From: a virus
Taxonomy: Duplodnaviria > Caudoviricetes
IMG/VR virus record: IMGVR_UViG_3300009182_000072
Coordinates: 1-58,640 of that record
Reading direction: 5' to 3' (one strand)
Length of the DNA stretch: 58,640 bases
Part shown: in pieces, positions 678-16,729 of the stretch
Numbering within the stretch: the first letter of the stretch is position 1
Layout: each line of letters begins with the position of its first letter
The notes under the pieces: generated by a model
Database searches by the model: none
What the model was told of the DNA's origin: nothing
What the model saw: only the letters and a program-made list of their open reading frames with translations
Made by a program: the position numbers and the translations under genes

Positions 678-775
678 GTGATGCAGTATTTTACGGTTTT
701 CTCTTGGCTGTGATGTTTTTGTTATTTGGACATCCCATTATTGCATTGATTGTTTTTCTCTTGGCGATACTATGA
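674..775 (+). CDS. small hydrophobic membrane peptide (33 aa, not in ORF track)
   Basis: MSDAVFYGFLLAVMFLLFGHPIIALIVFLLAIL; ATGA overlaps with both neighbours. Confidence 0.65.
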   Translation: MSDAVFYGFLLAVMFLLFGHPIIALIVFLLAIL

Positions 776-1185
776 AACAAATTATTTTTGGTGGTAGAGT
801 GATGGATGGTTACTACATCGAATTCAAGAACGATAAAGTAAAGGTCATATCAACTAAACAAACTGGCATTAAAGAGATGTCCCTGCCCATGAGTGGTAGT
901 TCTAAGTATCCTGGTTTAGTCTTTACTGTTGGTTCTGATAAGATCAGAGCAGATATTCATCGGGTTATAGCTGAGAATTTAATTCCTTTCCCCAGACCAA
1001 AGTGTATACCTAAATCAAAGTGGGATTCTACTTCAAATTTGGTGAAGGATCATATCAAGTCTCTTTACTTTGTTAACCATATCGATCATGACAAGTATAA
1101 CTTTCATCCTACAAATCTAGAGTGGGTCACTAGCAAGGGTAATGCTAATGCGTATCAGAAGCATAAAAAAGGAATTACAAAATGA
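772..1185 (+). CDS. HNH endonuclease (free-standing homing-type)
   Basis: IHRVIAE...VNHIDHDKYNFHPTNLEWVT HNH motif. Confidence 0.85.
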   Translation: MKQIIFGGRVMDGYYIEFKNDKVKVISTKQTGIKEMSLPMSGSSKYPGLVFTVGSDKIRADIHRVIAENLIPFPRPKCIPKSKWDSTSNLVKDHIKSLYFVNHIDHDKYNFHPTNLEWVTSKGNANAYQKHKKGITK

Positions 1186-7255: not shown

Positions 7256-8020
7256 ATGGCAACTCGTTCAGCTAAAAAAGTAGTAGAAATAAATTATGAT
7301 GAACGTGAGACTAAACCAGTGTCTTCTAATCAACTAAAATTAAGATTAGATAATTTAAGAACTTTCCAACCACTAACAGAAAACCAAAAATTATTCTTTG
7401 ATGCGTATAAACAAGGTGATTACTTTGTAGCATTACATGGTGTAGCTGGTACTGGTAAAACCTTTATTGCACTTTATAAAGCAATAGAAGAAGTACTGGA
7501 TAAATCAAATCCTTTTAATAAAATTATTGTTGTTCGTTCAGCAGTGCAAGGTCGTGAGATTGGTCACCTTCCAGGTGATGTAAACGAAAAGATGGAAATC
7601 TATGAACAACCTTATCGTCAGATCTGCCATCAGTTGTTTGATCGTAAAGACGCATGGGATCGTTTAGAAGAACAAGGTTATATCCAGTTTATTTCTACTT
7701 CCTTTATTCGTGGTATGTCTTTTGATAATGCAATCATTATTGTTGATGAGATGCAGAATTTAACATTTGAAGAAATTGATACAGTTATGACTCGTGTTGG
7801 TCACATGTCTAAAATTCTTTGGTGTGGAGACTATCGTCAGACTGATCTAAATAAACTAAAGAACGACGTTACTGGTATTTTGAAATTCTTTGATATTGCT
7901 CAACACATGAAGTCATTTACTCGGATTGAGTTTACTGTAGATGACATTGTTCGTTCTTCACTGGTTAAAGATTATATCTTGGCTAAATTAAAATTCGAAG
8001 ATTATGAGGATAAACGATGA
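7256..8020 (+). CDS. phoH: PhoH-family ATPase
   Basis: GVAGTGKT Walker A, RSAV, GHLPG, RGMSF, DEMQN, GDYRQTD, DIVRS. Confidence 0.95.
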   Translation: MATRSAKKVVEINYDERETKPVSSNQLKLRLDNLRTFQPLTENQKLFFDAYKQGDYFVALHGVAGTGKTFIALYKAIEEVLDKSNPFNKIIVVRSAVQGREIGHLPGDVNEKMEIYEQPYRQICHQLFDRKDAWDRLEEQGYIQFISTSFIRGMSFDNAIIIVDEMQNLTFEEIDTVMTRVGHMSKILWCGDYRQTDLNKLKNDVTGILKFFDIAQHMKSFTRIEFTVDDIVRSSLVKDYILAKLKFEDYEDKR

Positions 8021-8637
8021 TTACAACAGAACAATTTGCACAATTATTTCCACGCAACCCAGAACCAGAGTTGTGGGCAGAATCTATGCAAGAAGTATTT
8101 CCAACTTATGAGATTAATACACCACAACGTGTTTCTGCATTCTTGGCACAGTGTGGTCATGAGTCTGGTGGTTGGACTACCTTCCAAGAAAACTTAAACT
8201 ATTCTGCACAGGGATTGTGTACCACGTTCAAGAAGTATTTTCCTACACTTGAATCTGCAACACCTTATGCACGTCAACCAGAAAAGATTGCTAATCGTGT
8301 TTATGCAAATCGTATGGGTAATGGACCAGAAGAATCTGGCGATGGTTGGAAGTATCGTGGTCGTGGACCAATTCAGTTGACTGGTAAGAGCAACTATATG
8401 CAATTTGCGCAAGACATGTTTGATGACTGGGAAAATCTTTTCAATAATCCAGACTGGGTTACTGAAGACAAAGACTTTGCACTGATGTCAGCTATCTGGT
8501 TCTGGAATAAAAACAAACTTAATGTTCAAGCAGATGCTGGTGACCTTAAGCTAATGACCAAGAAAATTAATGGTGGTTATCTTGGACTTGATGATCGTAT
8601 TGCACATTATAATGAATGTATAAACCTGTTAGGCTAA
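8017..8637 (+). CDS. glycoside hydrolase family 19 lysozyme/endolysin
   Basis: FLAQCGHESGG, ENLNYS, YRGRGPIQLTGKSNY, SAIWFW, INGG. Confidence 0.9.
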   Translation: MITTEQFAQLFPRNPEPELWAESMQEVFPTYEINTPQRVSAFLAQCGHESGGWTTFQENLNYSAQGLCTTFKKYFPTLESATPYARQPEKIANRVYANRMGNGPEESGDGWKYRGRGPIQLTGKSNYMQFAQDMFDDWENLFNNPDWVTEDKDFALMSAIWFWNKNKLNVQADAGDLKLMTKKINGGYLGLDDRIAHYNECINLLG

Positions 8638-9291
8638 ATGAAAACTTTTATTGATCATGATTTCCCTAAACTCCAACGTGACACTTCCCCCGATGGCACA
8701 CGAGTCTATAAAACACCGACGGGTCGAGCCTATCCAAGCGTCACTACCGTTACAGGACTCCACACAGCAAAAGGAATCGCCGAGTGGAGACGAAGAGTCG
8801 GAAATGAAGAAGCTAACAGAATCAGTTCCCGAGCAAGTGCCAGAGGTACAAGAATCCACTCTCTCTGCGAAGCATATCTCCGCAATGAACGATGTGAACC
8901 TGATATCTTCGATAAAGAGTTATTTGGAAGCATATCACAGTGGCTCGAAGACATAGATAATATACATGCCATTGAAGAACCACTGTACTCAGATTATCTT
9001 GAAGTAGCTGGTACTGTTGATTGCATTGCTGAGTTTCAGGGTAAGTTATCAGTTATCGATTTTAAGACTTCTAGTAAGCCAAAAGATCGTGATGATATCT
9101 ACAACTACTTTATGCAGTGTGCTGCATATTCAGTGGCATTTGAAGAGAGAACAGGTATTCCTATTGGGAGACTTGTGATCATAATGGCAGTTGATAATGA
9201 TGATCCAAGATTGTTCATTGAAAAACGTGACAACTGGATTGGTGGATTTCGTAAACTAAGATTAGATTATAAAAATTTAAAAGGAGTATAA
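8638..9291 (+). CDS. PD-(D/E)XK exonuclease
   Basis: YPSVTT, RGTRIH, AGTVDCI, IDFKTS, Q..AY motifs; usual neighbour of phoH in T4-like phages. Confidence 0.85.
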   Translation: MKTFIDHDFPKLQRDTSPDGTRVYKTPTGRAYPSVTTVTGLHTAKGIAEWRRRVGNEEANRISSRASARGTRIHSLCEAYLRNERCEPDIFDKELFGSISQWLEDIDNIHAIEEPLYSDYLEVAGTVDCIAEFQGKLSVIDFKTSSKPKDRDDIYNYFMQCAAYSVAFEERTGIPIGRLVIIMAVDNDDPRLFIEKRDNWIGGFRKLRLDYKNLKGV

Positions 9292-10153: not shown

Positions 10154-10474
10154 ATGATTCCATTATTTGACTATGGTTCTATTAAAGAAGAACATAAATT
10201 AGCTGCAGAAGAATGCGCTAAGATGATTGAACCACATCAATCATATGTAGCTAATCAGATTCGTGAAAGATTTAAGATTGTGGAGCCAGAAAGAATGGAT
10301 CCCGAGAGTAGCGAATTCTATAGAACAGCAAAAGAATTTGGTTTGCATGTAGCAATGCAAGGTCATATGGTTGGACCAGATGGGGTTCAAATACCAATGG
10401 TTATAGTTTGTGCTGAACTACCAAAGTTTGATGAATTTTTGCAGTACTACAAAAAGTTGAACTGCAAAGATTAA
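10154..10474 (+). CDS. hypothetical protein
   Basis: ORF with AAGGT SD. Confidence 0.75.
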   Translation: MIPLFDYGSIKEEHKLAAEECAKMIEPHQSYVANQIRERFKIVEPERMDPESSEFYRTAKEFGLHVAMQGHMVGPDGVQIPMVIVCAELPKFDEFLQYYKKLNCKD

Positions 10475-10485
10475 TACGGTATAAT
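10457..10485 (+). promoter_or_regulatory. sigma70-like promoter upstream of the tmRNA
   Basis: TTGAAC(10457-10462)-17 nt ending GG-TATAAT(10480-10485). Confidence 0.7.
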
Positions 10486-10491
10486 TATGTG

Positions 10492-10800
10492 TAAGTGAAT
10501 GGTTGTTTGAAATTAACCGAAAGGTGTTGCGGACGGGAGTTCGATTCTCCCCACCTCCACCAGAAACATACTAGGTCGTTGAGTTAAAAAGTCGCATGTG
10601 ATGCGCTCAGATTAAAATAGTATGTTTCTGATGGGGGTGACCAGGTTTCGACGTGGCAATAAGTACGAAGATGGACAACTCGAGACAGATACTCGTTAAA
10701 AGTAAACAAAAGTAAACGCAAACGACTCACAGTTCGCATTGGCAGCCTAAACGCTGACTAGGGTTTCGGTAGGTTTCCTCGTAACAGAATAACCTACCAC
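10492..10800 (+). ncRNA. ssrA: circularly permuted (two-piece) tmRNA
   Basis: Acceptor piece GGACGGGAGTTCGATTCTCCCCACCTCCACCA ends at 10562; intervening 13-bp stem 10561-10573/10618-10630; coding piece starts GGGGGTGACCAGGTTTCGAC at 10633; tag frame 10718-10750 = ANDSQFALAA*; G3-U70 pair. Outer ends are estimates. Confidence 0.93.
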
Positions 10801-10825
10801 TTTTAACTTTTAAGGGAATTTACAG

Positions 10826-11269
10826 ATGAAGAAAATGATTTTTGTAGCTGCATTAATGGCAGCAGTTTCTGCGCAAGCAGTTGAGTTGGGTATCAATGCA
10901 AGTCGTGATAATGGTAACTCCAATCGTGATGGCGGTGGCTTGACCATCTCTGAAAGTTTCGGTACAACTGGTATCGTAGCTGGTTGGGATCGTTACTCAA
11001 GTGGTACTGAATTGAACAAGTATAGCTTGATGGGCACTTATGATGTTGCTAATTTTGGTAAAGCAGTTGTAGCTGTTAAAGCTGGTGTTGCTTATGTAGA
11101 CCAAAAGAATTCAACTGATGGTTATGCTGGTTTGGTTGGTGTAGGCGTATCATACCCAGTTGCTAAGAAAGTTTCTTTAACTGCAGATTATCGTTATCAA
11201 GCAGGTCAAAGTCGCATTTCTAGTCTAGATGGTGGTGCTGTTTCTGCTGGCTTGAAGTACTCGTTCTAA
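10826..11269 (+). CDS. outer-membrane beta-barrel protein (OmpA-TM/Ail/Lom-like)
   Basis: Sec signal peptide ending AQA, alternating amphipathic strands, C-terminal LKYSF beta-signal. Confidence 0.85.
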   Translation: MKKMIFVAALMAAVSAQAVELGINASRDNGNSNRDGGGLTISESFGTTGIVAGWDRYSSGTELNKYSLMGTYDVANFGKAVVAVKAGVAYVDQKNSTDGYAGLVGVGVSYPVAKKVSLTADYRYQAGQSRISSLDGGAVSAGLKYSF

Positions 11270-12026: not shown

Positions 12027-12302
12027 ATGGCAAACCTTACGCCATTTGAAATCCGTCTTGAACTTCTCAAGATGGCAAAAGACATGCTTTCCGAGGAATA
12101 CTATGGTAAGCGTGAAGTAATTAGCAACGACTGGCAAACTAAAGTCGAATCTGCTAAAATCAATGGTGGCACGATTCCTGATCATCCAGGATTCCCTGCT
12201 TACCCAGTAGAAAGCGACATCATTGCAAAGGCGCAAGTCTTGAATGGTTTCGTTTCAAACATCCCCCAAGATACAAAGACTACTAGCAAGAAGTCAACCT
12301 GA
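12027..12302 (+). CDS. hypothetical phage protein (TPFEIRLELLKMA)
   Basis: Strong SD; flanked by a promoter and a hairpin. Confidence 0.85.
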   Translation: MANLTPFEIRLELLKMAKDMLSEEYYGKREVISNDWQTKVESAKINGGTIPDHPGFPAYPVESDIIAKAQVLNGFVSNIPQDTKTTSKKST

Positions 12303-12356: not shown

Positions 12357-12953
12357 ATGCGAGTGTATTTATACATACTCATACTCATATCAACAATTGT
12401 TGCAATTACATTTGCTGCAACTGCATATCCACAAAATTTTAAATTATTTGACATCCGATACTCTGAACTAACAAAAGAAGCGAAACAACAAGTAGCATGT
12501 TTAGCTGAGAACATCTATTATGAAGCTGGTTATGAACCAGAAGATGGAAAACTAGCTGTTGCTCTAGTCACATTGAATAGGACACAAAGTCCAAAATTCC
12601 CAAACAATATTTGTGGTGTTGTAAAACAGAAAACCAACTCCACTTGCCAGTTTACATGGTTCTGTGAACCAATGAGGTTAAATAAGAATAACATCGCTTA
12701 TGAAAAAGCCATGGAAGTTGCTTTGTTTGCTTATGCAAACTATGAAGTTATAGATGATATAACAAAGGGTGCTCTATATTATCATGCTGACTACGTTAAC
12801 CCAAGATGGAAACTTCAACGAACAACCATAATCGGTCGACATATTTTTTATAAAGAAGGTGGTATACACAATGATGGAAAAACTAAACCTGTCTCTAAAA
12901 GAGGACAGTTCGAGGCACTCGTTCTTTCTCTTGATGGAGGAAGTAACTCTTAA
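12357..12953 (+). CDS. SleB-like cell wall hydrolase (Hydrolase_2) with N-terminal TM/signal
   Basis: CLAENIYYEA, AVALVTLNR, CQFTW, GALYYHADYVNPRW, IGRHIFYK. Confidence 0.9.
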   Translation: MRVYLYILILISTIVAITFAATAYPQNFKLFDIRYSELTKEAKQQVACLAENIYYEAGYEPEDGKLAVALVTLNRTQSPKFPNNICGVVKQKTNSTCQFTWFCEPMRLNKNNIAYEKAMEVALFAYANYEVIDDITKGALYYHADYVNPRWKLQRTTIIGRHIFYKEGGIHNDGKTKPVSKRGQFEALVLSLDGGSNS

Positions 12954-13428
12954 TACTTGTAAGCAAGCAGTTGAGTGGATTCTTGAAGCAAATTTTGCTG
13001 AAGAAACTCCAGAGATGCTTAATTTAATTATTACTAGTCCAGGTGGCGATCTTAATGCTGCGTTTGCATTAGTTGATGTAATGCGTGGCTCTTCAATACC
13101 AATACGAACAGTTGGTCTTGGACAGGTTGCTTCTGCTGGTCTGATGATTTTTATTGCAGGTACAAATGGTCAGCGAATTCTTACACCGAATACTTCTATT
13201 CTATCACACCAATATTCATGGGGTGCGTTTGGTAAAGAGCATGAACTGTTTGCGCAGATTAAAGAATTTGATCTAACTACAAAACGTATGGTATCTCACT
13301 ATAAGAAATGTACTGGTCTTAAAGAAGAACAGATTCGTGAATATCTACTTCCTCCACAAGACATCTGGCTCAGTTCTGCTGAAGCCAAAAAATTAGGATT
13401 ATGCGATGACGTTAAAGATCTTAAGTAA
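12871..13428 (+). CDS. clpP: ClpP-family serine protease
   Basis: IITSPGGD, GQVASAG (Ser), SHQ (His), QDIWL (Asp), EAKKLGLCD. Confidence 0.9.
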   Translation: MMEKLNLSLKEDSSRHSFFLLMEEVTLNTCKQAVEWILEANFAEETPEMLNLIITSPGGDLNAAFALVDVMRGSSIPIRTVGLGQVASAGLMIFIAGTNGQRILTPNTSILSHQYSWGAFGKEHELFAQIKEFDLTTKRMVSHYKKCTGLKEEQIREYLLPPQDIWLSSAEAKKLGLCDDVKDLK

Positions 13429-14491: not shown

Positions 14492-14758
14492 ATGAATACA
14501 AACTACACAAAAATCGTTTCGTTCGCAACTGATCGTAACACCCAAGGTATCCATGACACACACCACGAACTTCTTGTGGAGCGCATGCGTCTGGATAAAT
14601 TCTTCAGCATGTATCTTGATAAATTTGAGCGCAAGATGGATCCTGAGAAAACCAACACACCTATCTGGCATCTCTATAAAAAGAAAATGCGTGAGTATGG
14701 TGAACTTCAACAAGCAATCAAAGCAGCAGAATACTACCTGAAGAAATCATATGTTTAA
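14492..14758 (+). CDS. hypothetical protein (probably leaderless)
   Basis: ATG 7 nt after the -10 box. Confidence 0.75.
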   Translation: MNTNYTKIVSFATDRNTQGIHDTHHELLVERMRLDKFFSMYLDKFERKMDPEKTNTPIWHLYKKKMREYGELQQAIKAAEYYLKKSYV

Positions 14759-14966
14759 GAACTCAAATGAATTTTCTTTGCTTATCGAACAGATCGTTAA
14801 GGAAAAACGCATCAATCACATGGATGCAGTTCTGGAGTATTGTAAGCAGAACTACCTTGAACCAGAAGATGTAAAGTCTCTCATCAACAAATCCCTCAAG
14901 GAAAAGATCGAGATGAACTTTCGTGAGATGAATTATTTACCTAAACAAGCACAGCTAGATGTATAA
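14751..14966 (+). CDS. 33: late transcription co-activator gp33
   Basis: FSLLIEQIVKEKRINHMDAVLEYC...LINKSLKEKIE; 33-59-32 synteny. Confidence 0.85.
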   Translation: MFKNSNEFSLLIEQIVKEKRINHMDAVLEYCKQNYLEPEDVKSLINKSLKEKIEMNFREMNYLPKQAQLDV

Positions 14967-15580
14967 TGGACGGATTTAAAGCATTTAAGTATTACATTTC
15001 TATCAAGTTACATTTCTCAAAAGATTCTTTCGATGTGTTTAAAAACAGGGGTGCTGTACAAGGAACTCGTGAAGCATTCCACGCACGCAATGATAGATAT
15101 ATGTTTGAGAAGTTAGCTCGTAAGTTTCCTGTTGACAAAGACCTTATTCAATTTTTCGTTGCAAATTTCGCATACGGTAATGAGAATATTGTTTATGCCT
15201 CAGAAGAAGCTGAGACTTACCTGATGGCTTGGCAAAAACGTAAACAATCCATGACGAAAATCTTTGCAGATGACTGCAATAAAATTTTAATGGATGCTTA
15301 CAAACGCAAGATTAAACAAGAATCGATTTTAAATTTTACTTTAAATCAATATCCAAGTATACTTAACTTATACCTTGGAAAACAAATTGGGATTGAAACC
15401 CTTAGGATTATAGATGACTTCGAGAATTTACTTGGTGCGTGGAAACAACACAGTTCTATGTTATTACTGTGGGAAAACGAGATACGCAAAGTTGAGAAAG
15501 TTAGAGGATTTGTTAAGTACGATCAAGAAAAAGTCTTAACAGTTTTTAATCAATTTAAAGAAGAGATAGCAGAGTTGTAA
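14966..15580 (+). CDS. 59: helicase loader gp59
   Basis: YISIKLHF...YMFEKLARK...FFVANF; synteny. Confidence 0.85.
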   Translation: MDGFKAFKYYISIKLHFSKDSFDVFKNRGAVQGTREAFHARNDRYMFEKLARKFPVDKDLIQFFVANFAYGNENIVYASEEAETYLMAWQKRKQSMTKIFADDCNKILMDAYKRKIKQESILNFTLNQYPSILNLYLGKQIGIETLRIIDDFENLLGAWKQHSSMLLLWENEIRKVEKVRGFVKYDQEKVLTVFNQFKEEIAEL

Positions 15581-15581
15581 T

Positions 15582-15791
15582 ATGGGTAAGACCTATCATA
15601 AAAATTCAAAGAAATTTGAAGAAGATTTTTCTGGTCAGCGTTCTGGAAAATCCACTGGTAAAAAAAGTGGCGGTATGAAAACGCTAAATAGTTATGTTGA
15701 TGAAGACTATGATGATCCATTTGTCGATGAGGTAGATGGAATAACTGATCAGATCTTTATTCAACATATAAAACAAGACGATACTAATTAA
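15582..15791 (+). CDS. small hypothetical protein, basic N-terminus and acidic C-terminus
   Basis: ORF between genes 59 and 32. Confidence 0.6.
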   Translation: MGKTYHKNSKKFEEDFSGQRSGKSTGKKSGGMKTLNSYVDEDYDDPFVDEVDGITDQIFIQHIKQDDTN

Positions 15792-15814
15792 TACTTTAAT
15801 ACGAAGGAAATACA

Positions 15815-16729
15815 ATGGATATTCAAACACTCCGCAAAATGCGCAATTCTGACTTTGGTGCAATCTCAAATGCATTCGAAAAAGTCGCAAATCCCCAAAC
15901 TGAAACCAAGTCATACGCTGACGATCGCTTCTGGAAACTTGAAGGCGACAAAGCAGGTAATGGCACAGCCACACTCCGCTTCCTACCACGTGTAGAAGGT
16001 GATGAGTTGCCTTGGGTACGTTTGTTTTCTCATGGCTTCCAAGGACCAACTGGTAAGTGGTACATTGAGAACTCCCTAACAACTCTTGGTGAAAACGATC
16101 CTGTCGGTGAGTTGAATACCCAACTTTGGAACTCTGGTTCTGAAGCAAACAAAGAGATTGCTCGTAAACAAAAACGTCGCCTATCTTTCATTGCCAATGT
16201 CTTGGTCGTATCTGATCCAAAGCATCCTGAGAATGAAGGTAAAGTTGTTCTGTTCAAATTCGGTAAAAAGATTTTTGATAAGATCATGGACAAGGCACGT
16301 CCAACTTATGATGATGAAAAACCTGTAAATGTTTTTGATCTTTGGGAAGGTGCAAACTTCAAACTGCGCATGCGTAAGAAAGATGGTTACACCAACTATG
16401 ATGAGTCTTCATTCCAGGATCCCGCACCTGTTTCTGAAGATGAAGACAAGTTGTTGGCTGTTGTAAATGCACAACACAAGTTGTCCGAGTTTACTGATCG
16501 CAAGAACTTTAAATCTTATGATGAACTAAAGAAGAAACTTGAAGAAGTTCTTTCTGGTGATGCGTTCTCTTCAAAGTCTGCTGCTGAGATTGCTGAAGAA
16601 GAAGATCGTCCAGTGGCTGCTGCTCCACAGATTAAATCTGCGCCAGCACCTAAGTCAAAGGAAGTCTCCCTTGAAGATGACGATGAAGATGTAATGTCTT
16701 ACTTTAAGAAAATCGCTCACGAAAATTGA
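15815..16729 (+). CDS. 32: single-stranded DNA-binding protein gp32
   Basis: DDRFWK...GNGTATLRFLP...HGFQGPTGKWYIENSLTT...FGKKIFDKI; acidic tail. Confidence 0.97.
   Translation: MDIQTLRKMRNSDFGAISNAFEKVANPQTETKSYADDRFWKLEGDKAGNGTATLRFLPRVEGDELPWVRLFSHGFQGPTGKWYIENSLTTLGENDPVGELNTQLWNSGSEANKEIARKQKRRLSFIANVLVVSDPKHPENEGKVVLFKFGKKIFDKIMDKARPTYDDEKPVNVFDLWEGANFKLRMRKKDGYTNYDESSFQDPAPVSEDEDKLLAVVNAQHKLSEFTDRKNFKSYDELKKKLEEVLSGDAFSSKSAAEIAEEEDRPVAAAPQIKSAPAPKSKEVSLEDDDEDVMSYFKKIAHEN

What the first reader, a model, noticed from the sequence alone, without database searches (positions are those of the whole stretch)
10492..10800. Phage-encoded circularly permuted (two-piece) tmRNA with tag ANDSQFALAA
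Seen: the tmRNA 3' end (T-arm GGGAG-TTCGATT-CTCCC, then CACCTCC-A-CCA ending at 10562) comes before the 5' end (GGGGGTG at 10633). The two form a 7-bp acceptor stem with the G3-U70 alanine identity pair and A73. The 70-nt intervening segment is closed by a perfect 13-bp stem (10561-10573/10618-10630). The tag frame GCA AAC GAC TCA CAG TTC GCA TTG GCA GCC TAA is at 10718-10750, with the stop in a hairpin loop. Inter-piece pairings are visible: TGTTGC/GCAATA and ACCGAAA/TTTCGGT. Established: permuted tmRNAs occur in alphaproteobacteria, a betaproteobacterial lineage (Dechloromonas) and marine picocyanobacteria; the phage tmRNAs I know of are mostly one-piece. Inference: this compact (about 240 nt mature) gene sits behind a phage-type promoter among phage genes, so the phage may supply its own ribosome-rescue RNA. 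It is invisible to the ORF track.
Basis: partly seen in the sequence, partly recalled or inferred. Interest (0 to 1): 0.92.

Follow-up and report, generated by a model that had tools for sequence, protein, structure and literature searches.

The report
Two-piece tmRNA gene in freshwater phage
A T4-like phage from fresh water carries a real, well-conserved gene for a two-piece ribosome-rescue RNA (tmRNA), but such phage genes were already described in 2022, so this is a new relative and not a new kind of thing.

Summary
ARAGORN calls a permuted tmRNA with tag ANDSQFALAA. Rfam scores it above threshold for tmRNA_permuted (126.8 bits, cut-off 47) and beta_tmRNA (121.3 bits, cut-off 84).

The gene lies among T4-like phage genes: PhoH and a PDDEXK exonuclease upstream, gp33, gp59 and gp32 downstream. 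Relatives keep it in the same place. 53 of 56 viral contigs found by a tmRNA pattern share the flanking proteins. 68 of 80 contigs found by the exonuclease alone carry a permuted tmRNA downstream.

Across 43 distinct sequences, 93% of pair cells stay paired, against 41-52% in slid controls, and 40 of 65 pairs show compensatory changes. The tag frame is open in 43 of 43, with synonymous variation.

It is not new in kind. Buchholz et al. 2022 (PMC9004378) reported two-piece tmRNAs in phages. The nearest isolate, Melnitz, carries one in the same slot, but alpha-type with a glutamine riboswitch; this one is beta-type without it.

The promoter is sigma-70-like, not a phage-specific type. Processing, charging and host remain untested.

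The parts
10457..10485 (+). Sigma-70-type promoter, TTGAAC - 17 nt - TATAAT. The inferred transcription start is near 10492.
   Evidence: 10 of 12 matches, though the region holds no more such sites than shuffles do (5 found, 4.8 expected). The script's best hit has an exact TATAAT at the same place in 24 of 42 relatives, and 20 of 42 score at least 10 of 12. The start site is inferred.
10492..10562 (+). Acceptor piece, about 71 nt, with an inferred 5' end. It holds the P2 distal strand 10501-10506, P2a strand 10525-10531, T arm 10535-10551, acceptor 3' strand 10552-10558, discriminator A 10559 and encoded CCA 10560-10562.
   Evidence: The T arm has 4 of 5 pairs with compensatory changes. The acceptor stem, G-U and A73 are invariant in 43 of 43.
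10563..10632 (+). Intervening segment of 70 nt, presumed to be excised. Its closing stem is 10561-10573/10618-10630 and it has an inner hairpin at 10593-10605.
   Evidence: z = -6.3. The closing stem covaries in relatives while the interior is unalignable. Its length is 26-229 nt, median 68, over 75 distinct versions. Excision is inferred.
10633..10800 (+). Coding piece, about 170 nt, with an inferred 3' end. It holds the acceptor 5' strand 10633-10639, P2a strand 10652-10658, P2 distal strand 10675-10680, a small hairpin in place of PK1 at 10681-10695, the tag frame, the stop-codon hairpin 10741-10758 and the 3' hairpin 10768-10798 with a conserved loop.
   Evidence: P2a has 5 of 7 pairs and P2 distal 5 of 6 pairs with compensatory changes. 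The 3' hairpin has 7 of 8.
10718..10750 (+). Tag reading frame: resume codon GCA at 10718, peptide ANDSQFALAA, stop TAA at 10748-10750.
   Evidence: The frame is open in 43 of 43 relatives. AND... and ...LAA are kept, with synonymous third-base changes, and the two length variants differ by whole codons.
10799..10813 (+). U-rich tail (ACTTTTAACTTTTAA) after the 3' hairpin. It is a likely transcription end.
   Evidence: Read. Inferred.
8638..9291 (+). PDDEXK-type exonuclease gene, the conserved upstream neighbour that marks the slot.
   Evidence: phrog_298, E 5.2e-69. It lies upstream of the tmRNA in 87 of 92 loci that have at least 2.5 kb upstream. Melnitz has the same order.
14751..16729 (+). 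gp33-like late-transcription regulator (14751-14966), gp59 helicase loader (14966-15580) and gp32 (15815-16729), the conserved downstream edge of the slot.
   Evidence: phrog_254, phrog_269 and phrog_224. Melnitz has the order tmRNA - gp33 - gp59 - gp32.
12859..13428 (+). ClpP-like serine protease gene 2 kb downstream. A link to tag-directed proteolysis is possible but not shown.
   Evidence: PF00574, 106.4 bits against a cut-off of 20.2. Ser, His and Asp align with ClpP's catalytic positions by my reading of the alignment. It is present downstream in 19 of 26 loci that have at least 4.5 kb downstream.

Best explanation
This is a functional, phage-encoded, circularly permuted (two-piece) tmRNA gene of the betaproteobacterial type. 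It has been inherited at a fixed place in the early/replication gene region of a clade of uncultured freshwater T4-like phages related to Melnitz and the pelagimyophages.

Likely mechanism, with each step marked:
1. Host RNA polymerase transcribes one precursor from the sigma-70-like promoter through the 3' hairpin and its U-rich tail (inferred).
2. The precursor folds so that the acceptor stem continues into the closing stem of the intervening segment (shown by fold and covariation).
3. Host RNase P cuts 5' of G10633. Host 3' trimming stops at the encoded CCA at 10562, and the 70-nt segment is discarded (inferred from how two-piece tmRNAs are described: PMC11915505 introduction, PMC9004378 section 8).
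4. The pieces of about 71 nt and 170 nt stay joined by the acceptor stem, P2a and distal P2 (pairings shown by covariation).
5. Host AlaRS charges the RNA through G3-U70 and A73. Host SmpB and EF-Tu bring it to ribosomes stalled on broken mRNAs (inferred).
6. Translation resumes at GCA 10718 and adds ANDSQFALAA, a C-terminal ...LAA degron (frame shown, tagging inferred).

The likely benefit is to keep ribosomes free while host transcription is shut off and mRNA turnover is high. The nearby phage ClpP-like protease may take part in removing or recycling tagged peptides (speculative).
For: - Detection: ARAGORN calls a permuted tmRNA with this tag. RF04321 scores 126.8 bits (cut-off 47) and RF01850 121.3 bits (cut-off 84).
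- Phage context on both sides, with even G+C: PhoH, an endolysin-like gene, an exonuclease, gp33, gp59, gp32 and baseplate genes. No integrase was found in the window.
- Conserved slot: 53 of 56 pattern-found viral loci share flanking proteins. 68 of 80 loci chosen by the exonuclease alone have a permuted tmRNA downstream, and 5 of the 12 misses are contigs whose tmRNA lies beyond the fetched flank.
- Structure under selection: RNAalifold finds 52 pairs, 31 with compensatory changes. My 65-pair structure has 93.2% of cells paired, against 41-52% when slid. It has 40 pairs with double changes, against 10-20 when slid, and 0 of 500 shuffles reach it.
- Identity elements are invariant in 43 of 43.
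- Coding constraint on the tag: the frame is open in 43 of 43, third-base changes are synonymous, and indels fall in whole codons.
- Type: 19 of 20 sampled relatives score above the beta_tmRNA cut-off and 20 of 20 above tmRNA_permuted. The three bacterial genomes examined in which the beta-type gene is the only tmRNA match over cut-off have tags ANDEHFAIAA, ANDERFALAA and ANDENFALAA.
- One grouping: 87 distinct phage tmRNAs sit on one side of a branch from 14 bacterial ones (support 88/93, 86% of bootstrap trees).
- Precedent: Melnitz has a two-piece tmRNA in the same slot (PMC9004378).
Against: - There is no direct evidence of transcription ends, processing, charging or tagging. The RNA-library data are contigs that mostly come from relatives and cannot show ends.
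- No SmpB gene is in the window, though the record is estimated at only 37% complete. The RNA would depend on host SmpB of an unknown host.
- The beta_tmRNA score (121 bits) is well below that of the three beta-type bacterial genes with canonical tags (169-296 bits), so the gene is divergent.
- PK1 is reduced to a 4-bp hairpin here. The proposed 3' pseudoknot and the GAAA/UUUC contact do not vary enough to be tested.
- The closest relatives (L129/L130) have a different T loop, D-loop analogue and intervening segment. The core is therefore exchangeable, and not every variant need be equally active.
- Only 24 of 42 relatives have the TATAAT box in the same position.
Confidence: 0.85

Rival explanations
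1. The RNA acts mainly as a competitor or decoy. It would titrate host SmpB, AlaRS or EF-Tu, or replace the host's tag, and so re-programme or dampen host trans-translation without simply adding rescue capacity.
For: A tRNA-like-domain-only tmRNA of mycobacteriophage DS6A is reported to inhibit the cell's tmRNA (passages of PMC4131195 and PMC11915505). No SmpB gene is in the window. The tRNA-like core is swapped between close relatives.
Against: A decoy needs no tag frame, yet the frame is intact in 43 of 43 with synonymous variation and a canonical ...LAA end. P2, the stop-codon hairpin and the 3' hairpin are also kept by compensatory changes. The tag resembles those of bacterial beta-type tmRNAs, so re-tagging would change little.
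Confidence: 0.07
2. It is a host-derived passenger: a piece of bacterial DNA joined to the contig by misassembly, a prophage flank, or a recent capture with no role for the phage.
For: tmRNA genes are common integration sites and fragments turn up in prophages (PMC9004378 section 8). The record is an incomplete metagenomic contig.
Against: The gene keeps the same place between phage genes in 53 of 56 and 68 of 80 independent viral loci. It has T4-like genes on both sides and no G+C step. No integrase was found. In 401 genomes of the order sampled, no match exceeded 57 of 314 nt. The phage tmRNAs group apart from the bacterial ones. Freshwater DNA runs from four studies each hold at least half of the sampled words of the stretch.
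Confidence: 0.03
3. It is a phage attachment-site mimic, a tmRNA copy kept so that the phage can integrate into the host ssrA gene and restore it.
For: Integration into ssrA with restoration of the gene end is well known for islands and temperate phages (abstract of PMC4383910 in the listing; PMC9004378 section 8).
Against: Attachment sites carry only the 3' end of the target, and here the whole gene with promoter, both pieces and tag is kept under selection. The phage is T4-like and no integrase is in the window, although the record is incomplete.
Confidence: 0.02

Closest known systems
Two-piece tmRNA (ssrA) of Methylophilales phage Melnitz and related marine T4-like phages (Buchholz et al. 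2022, PMC9004378)
   Same: Both are permuted tmRNAs in a T4-like myovirus. Melnitz is the nearest isolate by gp32, at 52% identity. The slot is the same: PhoH - PDDEXK nuclease - small ORFs - tmRNA - gp33 - gp59 - gp32. Both follow an early-type promoter, neither phage has an integrase reported, and the same role is proposed.
   Different: Melnitz's gene is alpha-type (RF01849, 106.7 bits), with a 14-residue tag ANDNYVPVDYALAA, an intervening segment well over 100 nt by my reading of the alignment, and a glutamine riboswitch just downstream. The window's gene is beta-type (RF01850) with a 10-residue tag, a 70-nt segment and no riboswitch. About 4 kb of other genes, including a ClpP-like protease, separate it from gp33. 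The habitat is fresh water, not the sea.
Betaproteobacterial two-piece tmRNA (Rfam RF01850). The founding paper, Sharkady and Williams 2004, is cited in PMC9004378 but was not held, so it is known to me only by recall and citation.
   Same: The gene order is the same, as are the P2 helices, the hairpin in place of PK1, the UAAA before the resume codon, the ANDxxFALAA-type tag and the 3' hairpin with a similar loop. The promoter also lies directly upstream, as in the model consensus.
   Different: The window scores 121 bits, against 169-296 for the three beta-type bacterial genes with canonical tags. By eye in alignment A2, its intervening segment is 70 nt against roughly 20-40 nt in those three. 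The phage gene lacks the bacterial G+C-rich terminal hairpin (alignment). It is encoded by a virus and groups apart from the bacterial rows.
One-piece tmRNAs of mycobacteriophages (Bxz1, Cali and others) and Bacillus phage G (Hudson et al. 2014, PMC4131195, passages)
   Same: These are also phage-borne tmRNA genes presumed to use host SmpB.
   Different: They have the standard gene order, different hosts and different phage families.
tRNA-like-domain-only tmRNA of mycobacteriophage DS6A
   Same: It is a phage-encoded tRNA-like domain of tmRNA.
   Different: It has no tag frame and is reported to be inhibitory. The window's gene has a complete, constrained tag frame.

Membership tests
tmRNA, permuted (two-piece) form | tRNA-like domain: 7-bp acceptor stem with G3-U70, discriminator A73 and encoded CCA | tested here: met
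   10633-10639 pairs with 10552-10558, with G10635-U10556, A10559 and CCA 10560-10562. All are invariant in 43 of 43 relatives.
tmRNA, permuted (two-piece) form | T arm with a T-loop-like sequence | tested here: met
   GGGAG-UUCGAUU-CUCCC at 10535-10551. 4 of 5 pairs show compensatory changes.
tmRNA, permuted (two-piece) form | Circular permutation: the CCA-bearing 3' part lies upstream of the GGGG 5' part, with an intervening segment between them | tested here: met
   The order is 10552-10562, then the 70-nt segment, then 10633 onwards. ARAGORN's tmRNA* call and both permuted-form models agree.
tmRNA, permuted (two-piece) form | P2 helices joining the two pieces | tested here: met
   10525-10531/10652-10658 is 99.7% paired, with 5 of 7 pairs compensatory. 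10501-10506/10675-10680 is 98% paired, with 5 of 6 compensatory.
tmRNA, permuted (two-piece) form | Tag reading frame from an alanine resume codon to a stop, ending in a hydrophobic ...LAA-type degron | tested here: met
   GCA 10718 to TAA 10750 gives ANDSQFALAA. Relatives show coding constraint.
tmRNA, permuted (two-piece) form | Covariance-model score above Rfam's gathering threshold | tested here: met
   RF04321 scores 126.8 against 47. RF01850 scores 121.3 against 84.
tmRNA, permuted (two-piece) form | Pseudoknots in the mRNA-like domain | tested here: inconclusive
   PK1 is a 4-bp hairpin here, as in the beta model. That helix is misaligned in the MAFFT alignment, at 54% paired. The proposed 3' pseudoknot 10760-10763/10776-10779 is 95% paired but has no compensatory change.
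tmRNA, permuted (two-piece) form | Cleavage of the precursor into two RNAs that stay paired | not testable with these tools
   Only assembled contigs of RNA libraries were available, and they cannot show ends.
tmRNA, permuted (two-piece) form | Alanylation, SmpB binding and trans-translation | not testable with these tools
   This needs biochemistry. No SmpB gene is in the window, and the record is 37% complete.
Melnitz-type phage tmRNA locus (Buchholz 2022) | T4-like phage with the tmRNA between the PDDEXK nuclease and gp33/gp59/gp32 | tested here: met
Melnitz-type phage tmRNA locus (Buchholz 2022) | Alphaproteobacterial-type tmRNA | tested here: not met
   The window's best clan hit is beta_tmRNA. 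Melnitz's is alpha_tmRNA.
Melnitz-type phage tmRNA locus (Buchholz 2022) | Glutamine riboswitch at the 3' end of the gene | tested here: not met
   No RF01739 hit at gathering threshold in the window, nor in 20 relatives. It is present in Melnitz.

The most novel reading that the evidence does not exclude
The slot between the PDDEXK nuclease and gp33/gp59 may be a swappable ribosome-rescue cassette in this phage lineage. Marine members (Melnitz) carry an alpha-type two-piece tmRNA with a glutamine riboswitch. The freshwater clade carries a beta-type one. Even near-identical freshwater relatives have exchanged the tRNA-like core and the intervening segment while keeping the flanks (window against L130).

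If the type tracks the host's translation and SmpB machinery, the tmRNA would be both a host-range determinant and a host marker. Together with the co-inherited ClpP-like protease, it could form a phage-run tag-and-degrade pathway. That pathway might recycle amino acids or blunt mRNA-cleaving abortive-infection systems.
Probability: 0.15. Interest if true: 0.6.

Novelty: new member of a known kind. Interest (0 to 1): 0.3.

Why it matters
It shows that phage-borne two-piece tmRNAs are not confined to marine phages or to the alpha type. A large uncultured freshwater T4-like clade keeps a beta-type gene under clear selection, at the place where its marine cousin Melnitz keeps an alpha-type one. 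By my sequence pattern, 125 of 136 fetched loci carry it; the two locus sets overlap in contigs, so this is not a count of independent phages.

That gives a natural comparison for asking whether a phage's tmRNA must match its host, which was the open point in the Melnitz paper's host-transition argument. It also gives a compact RNA of about 240 nt for testing two-piece tmRNA processing. No cultured or GenBank phage in the collection searched has a similar gene, so annotation pipelines that skip permuted models will miss it.

Tried and rejected
- blastn of the tmRNA against 50,697 phage records gave no match.
- RNA evidence: one search for runs and one laying of reads. All runs were assembled contigs. 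Pieces from three RNA libraries at 90% likeness or more covered mainly 10524-10574 and 10693-10805, the conserved tmRNA parts. One X17 piece covered 10455-10511 and one X12 piece 10975-11204. Most ran on into sequence unlike the window, so they come from relatives. They show neither ends nor transcription of this gene, and uncovered parts mean nothing.
- Host: blastn of the tmRNA against 401 genomes of the order around a Herbaspirillum genome found only matches of 24-57 nt. Three genomes of 1.2-1.3 Mb had no beta-type tmRNA over cut-off, but their identity is unknown.
- The genome contigs pattern scan returned only 12 loci, mostly labelled Oxalobacteraceae, with unusual tags. They are not close to the phage gene.
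A single-gap pattern was used instead.
- Sharkady and Williams 2004 is not held.
- The 91-aa ORF 12027-12302 is not the gp33 homologue: there is no BLASTP alignment to Melnitz gp33. The gp33-like gene is 14751-14966.
- In the tree, Melnitz's alpha-type row fell inside the phage group on a very long branch of 1.36. I take this as an artefact.
- Literature: searches for 'two-piece tmRNA' with phage; 'permuted tmRNA' with phage; 'beta_tmRNA'; tmRNA with freshwater, myophage and Methylopumilus; and tmRNA with ClpP, phage genome and T4-like. None found a description of beta-type two-piece tmRNAs in freshwater phages. Supplements were closed, so Table S1 of PMC9004378 and Table S2 of PMC11915505 may list such cases.

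Full report
**Observation.**
- The T arm is GGGAG/UUCGAUU/CUCCC at 10535-10551.
- It is followed by CACCUCC (10552-10558), A (10559) and CCA (10560-10562).
- GGGGGUG starts at 10633 and pairs with 10552-10558 in seven standard pairs, including G10635-U10556.
- The 70 nt between them (10563-10632) are closed by 13 perfect pairs, 10561-10573 with 10618-10630.
- The fold of 10535-10650 recovers the T arm, the acceptor stem and this long stem, with z = -6.3 and 0 of 200 shuffles as good.
- 10718-10750 reads ANDSQFALAA, then a stop.

ARAGORN reports one gene in the whole window, a permuted tmRNA at 10470-10841 with this tag. Rfam reports two matches at gathering threshold and nothing else in 58.6 kb: tmRNA_permuted RF04321 (126.8 bits, cut-off 47) and beta_tmRNA RF01850 (121.3 bits, cut-off 84).

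**Context.** The window is a linear IMG/VR virus record of 58,640 bp, estimated to be 37% complete. G+C runs at 0.32-0.44 with no step at the gene.
- Upstream lie PhoH (7256-8020), an endolysin-like gene (8017-8637) and a PDDEXK exonuclease (8638-9291).
- Downstream lie a small beta-barrel-like outer-membrane protein (10826-11269), a cell-wall hydrolase (12357-12953) and a ClpP-like protease (12859-13428).
- Then come a gp33-like late-transcription regulator (14751-14966), the gp59 helicase loader (14966-15580) and gp32 (15815-16729).
- T4-type baseplate genes follow.
- No integrase and no SmpB gene were found in the window.

By gp32 the nearest isolates are Methylophilales phage Melnitz (52%) and Pelagibacter phage HTVC008M (51%). 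Freshwater metagenome runs from four studies each hold at least half of the sampled words of the stretch.

**Relatives and synteny.** A pattern built on the permuted junction found 56 viral contigs.
- ARAGORN calls a permuted tmRNA in 51 of them. Three of the five misses have Rfam hits, two of those cut by the locus end.
- 53 of the 56 share at least one of 17 flanking window proteins, in the same order.
- For a set not chosen by the RNA, I fetched 80 loci through the exonuclease protein. 68 carry a permuted tmRNA downstream. Five of the 12 misses are contigs where the first scan had already found the tmRNA beyond the fetched flank.
- By my pattern, 125 of the 136 loci hold the junction. The two sets overlap in contigs, so these are not independent counts.
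- In 20 of the 56 loci, picked for small size, 20 of 20 pass RF04321 and 19 of 20 pass RF01850. The miss is cut at its 5' end. None has a riboswitch.

**Selection on structure.** I aligned the window with 42 distinct relatives; nine exact duplicates were dropped.
- RNAalifold predicts 52 pairs, 31 with compensatory changes.
- A 65-pair structure that I wrote from the Rfam alignment and the sequence has 93.2% of cells paired. Sliding the partners by 1-3 columns gives 41-52%.
- It has 40 pairs with changes on both sides, against 10-20 when slid. Its covariation score is 0.31, against 0.08 at most, and 0 of 500 shuffles reach it.
- The acceptor stem, the G-U pair, A73, the CCA and the UGAU before G1 are invariant in 43 of 43.
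- The T arm, P2a (10525-10531/10652-10658), distal P2 (10501-10506/10675-10680), the closing stem of the intervening segment and the 3' hairpin (10768-10798) all covary.
- The structure was partly derived from this sequence, which favours it over the slid controls. The compensatory counts do not depend on that.

TGTTGC/GCAATA and the 7-bp ACCGAAA/TTTCGGT do not hold up as conserved helices. They are paired in 71.9% of cells, and 395 of 500 shuffles reach that. Only the GAAA/UUUC core is kept, and it barely varies.

**Selection on the tag.** The frame is open in 43 of 43.
- 41 tags have ten residues and two have thirteen.
- A-N-D at the start and L-A-A at the end are kept while third bases change: AAC/AAT, GAC/GAT, TTA/TTG/CTT/CTA, GCC/GCG/GCT.
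- Positions 4 and 5 vary freely.

This pattern fits a translated template, not a mere tRNA-like decoy.

**Transcription signals.**
- TTGAAC-17-TATAAT lies at 10457-10485. This is a sigma-70-type match, not a T4 middle or late promoter, and the region as a whole has no excess of such sites.
- The script's best hit has an exact TATAAT at the same place in 24 of 42 relatives, and 20 of 42 score at least 10 of 12.
- The Rfam beta model also includes such a promoter in its consensus.
- The 3' hairpin is followed by a U-rich run, a likely terminator. The scan missed it because the loop is long.

**Comparison with bacteria.**
- A blastn of the gene against 401 genomes of the order around a Herbaspirillum genome gave only short matches. 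The best are 33-41 nt of the T arm and acceptor strand, and the longest is 57 nt.
- In 151 genomes of that order, 4 have a beta-type tmRNA over cut-off, at 296, 251.5, 169 and 102.8 bits.
- The three strongest have no standard tmRNA match over cut-off in the same genomes. Their tags are ANDEHFAIAA, ANDERFALAA and ANDENFALAA, and their intervening segments are about 20-40 nt by eye.
- The phage gene is therefore a divergent member of the beta type, with a longer intervening segment. Across 75 distinct phage versions the segment is 26-229 nt, median 68.
- I built a tree of 102 rows with the intervening segment cut out. It holds 87 phage rows, 14 bacterial rows and Melnitz. Loci without both full pieces and exact duplicates were left out. 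The phage rows fall on one side of a branch (88/93; 86% of bootstrap trees), nearest to the three single-copy bacterial genes. The bootstrap had not settled, so this is rough.
- Three unpublished genomes (G208, G382, G029) are in the denominators only.

**What is already known.**
- Buchholz et al. 2022 (PMC9004378; abstract, section 8 and passages read) describe a two-piece tmRNA in Melnitz behind an early promoter, followed by a glutamine riboswitch.
- They count 53 two-piece forms among 133 unique tmRNAs in 18,146 phage genomes, 50 of them from aquatic phages. They also report permuted tmRNAs in 17 of 47 Melnitz-like contigs.
- I confirmed on the Melnitz record that its gene lies in the same slot, in the order PhoH - PDDEXK nuclease - two small ORFs - tmRNA - gp33 - gp59 - thyX - gp32. 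It is alpha-type (RF01849, 106.7 bits), with tag ANDNYVPVDYALAA and a glutamine riboswitch.
- Hudson et al. 2014 (PMC4131195, passages) list one-piece phage tmRNAs and the DS6A tRNA-like-domain-only form.
- The 2025 tmRNA database paper (PMC11915505, passages) counts 79 phage sequences and explains the merged permuted model.
- I found nothing in print on beta-type two-piece tmRNAs in freshwater phages. The supplementary tables that could list them were closed.
- No record among 50,697 deposited phages resembles this gene.

**Mechanism.**
- Shown: the gene order, the fold, the identity elements, the inter-piece helices, the tag frame and their conservation.
- Inferred: transcription from the sigma-70-like promoter, RNase P cleavage before G10633, and 3' trimming to the encoded CCA.
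- Also inferred: loss of the 70-nt segment, charging by host AlaRS, delivery by host SmpB and EF-Tu, tagging, and proteolysis.

A T4-like phage that shuts down host transcription could gain from making its own rescue RNA. This is the role the Melnitz authors also proposed.

**Verdict.** The gene is a real, selected, phage-encoded two-piece tmRNA: a new member of a known kind. Its modest points of interest are these:
- It is the beta type.
- It belongs to a large freshwater clade with no cultured representative in the collection searched.
- It shares a slot with the alpha-type gene of Melnitz.
- The tRNA-like core and intervening segment have been exchanged between close relatives.
- A ClpP-like protease lies nearby.

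Noticed in passing
window 12859-13428 (+): A ClpP-like serine protease gene lies in the early/replication region, 2 kb downstream of the tmRNA. It matches PF00574 at 106.4 bits, and Ser, His and Asp align with ClpP's catalytic positions. It is not in a head-gene context. The closest deposited phages are Synechococcus phage BUCT-ZZ01 (53%, annotated hypothetical) and Sinorhizobium phage Phosso. It is present downstream of the tmRNA in 19 of 26 relatives with enough flank. The listed GTG start overlaps the preceding hydrolase gene by 95 nt, so an ATG a few codons in is the more likely start.
   Followed up: partly
L130:4968-5445 and L129:1449-1926 against window 10449-10830: The closest relatives have 96% identical exonuclease and the same tag. 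Their tmRNA flanks are nearly identical to the window's, but the T arm (T loop GUGCAAAU), the D-loop analogue and the intervening segment (about 174 nt) differ. This is a mosaic, as if the tRNA-like core had been swapped by recombination. Long intervening segments of L130 and L163 share a short similar stretch of unknown meaning.
   Followed up: partly
L065/L074 (Herbaspirillum sp. alder98, G001) and L062/L073 (Duganella sp. MAG, G002): Each of these Oxalobacteraceae genomes holds a standard one-piece tmRNA (213-218 bits on RF00023). Each also holds a second, permuted beta-type tmRNA (102.8 and 111.9 bits on RF01850) whose tag does not end in the usual degron (ANEPQFVAYGT, ANESQFLAVGT). Other loci from the same scan have tags of 23-30 residues. 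The role of these second copies was not examined.
   Followed up: partly
window 10826-11269 (+): The ORF right after the tmRNA looks secreted, judging by eye from its hydrophobic N-terminus (MKKMIFVAALMAAVSAQA). It has weak matches to outer-membrane beta-barrel families, including the OmpA transmembrane domain at 23.4 bits against a cut-off of 21. It is found downstream in only 6 of 26 relatives with enough flank.
   Followed up: no
L053:4451-4868 and L060:4694-5117: Some relatives carry an extra hairpin between P2 and the tag frame, and these two have a further insertion of about 40 nt in it. The region that replaces PK1 is therefore variable in length.
   Followed up: no
window 772-1185 (+): A small ORF has an HNH endonuclease motif (PF13392, 29 bits). 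It may be a homing endonuclease in the early region.
   Followed up: no
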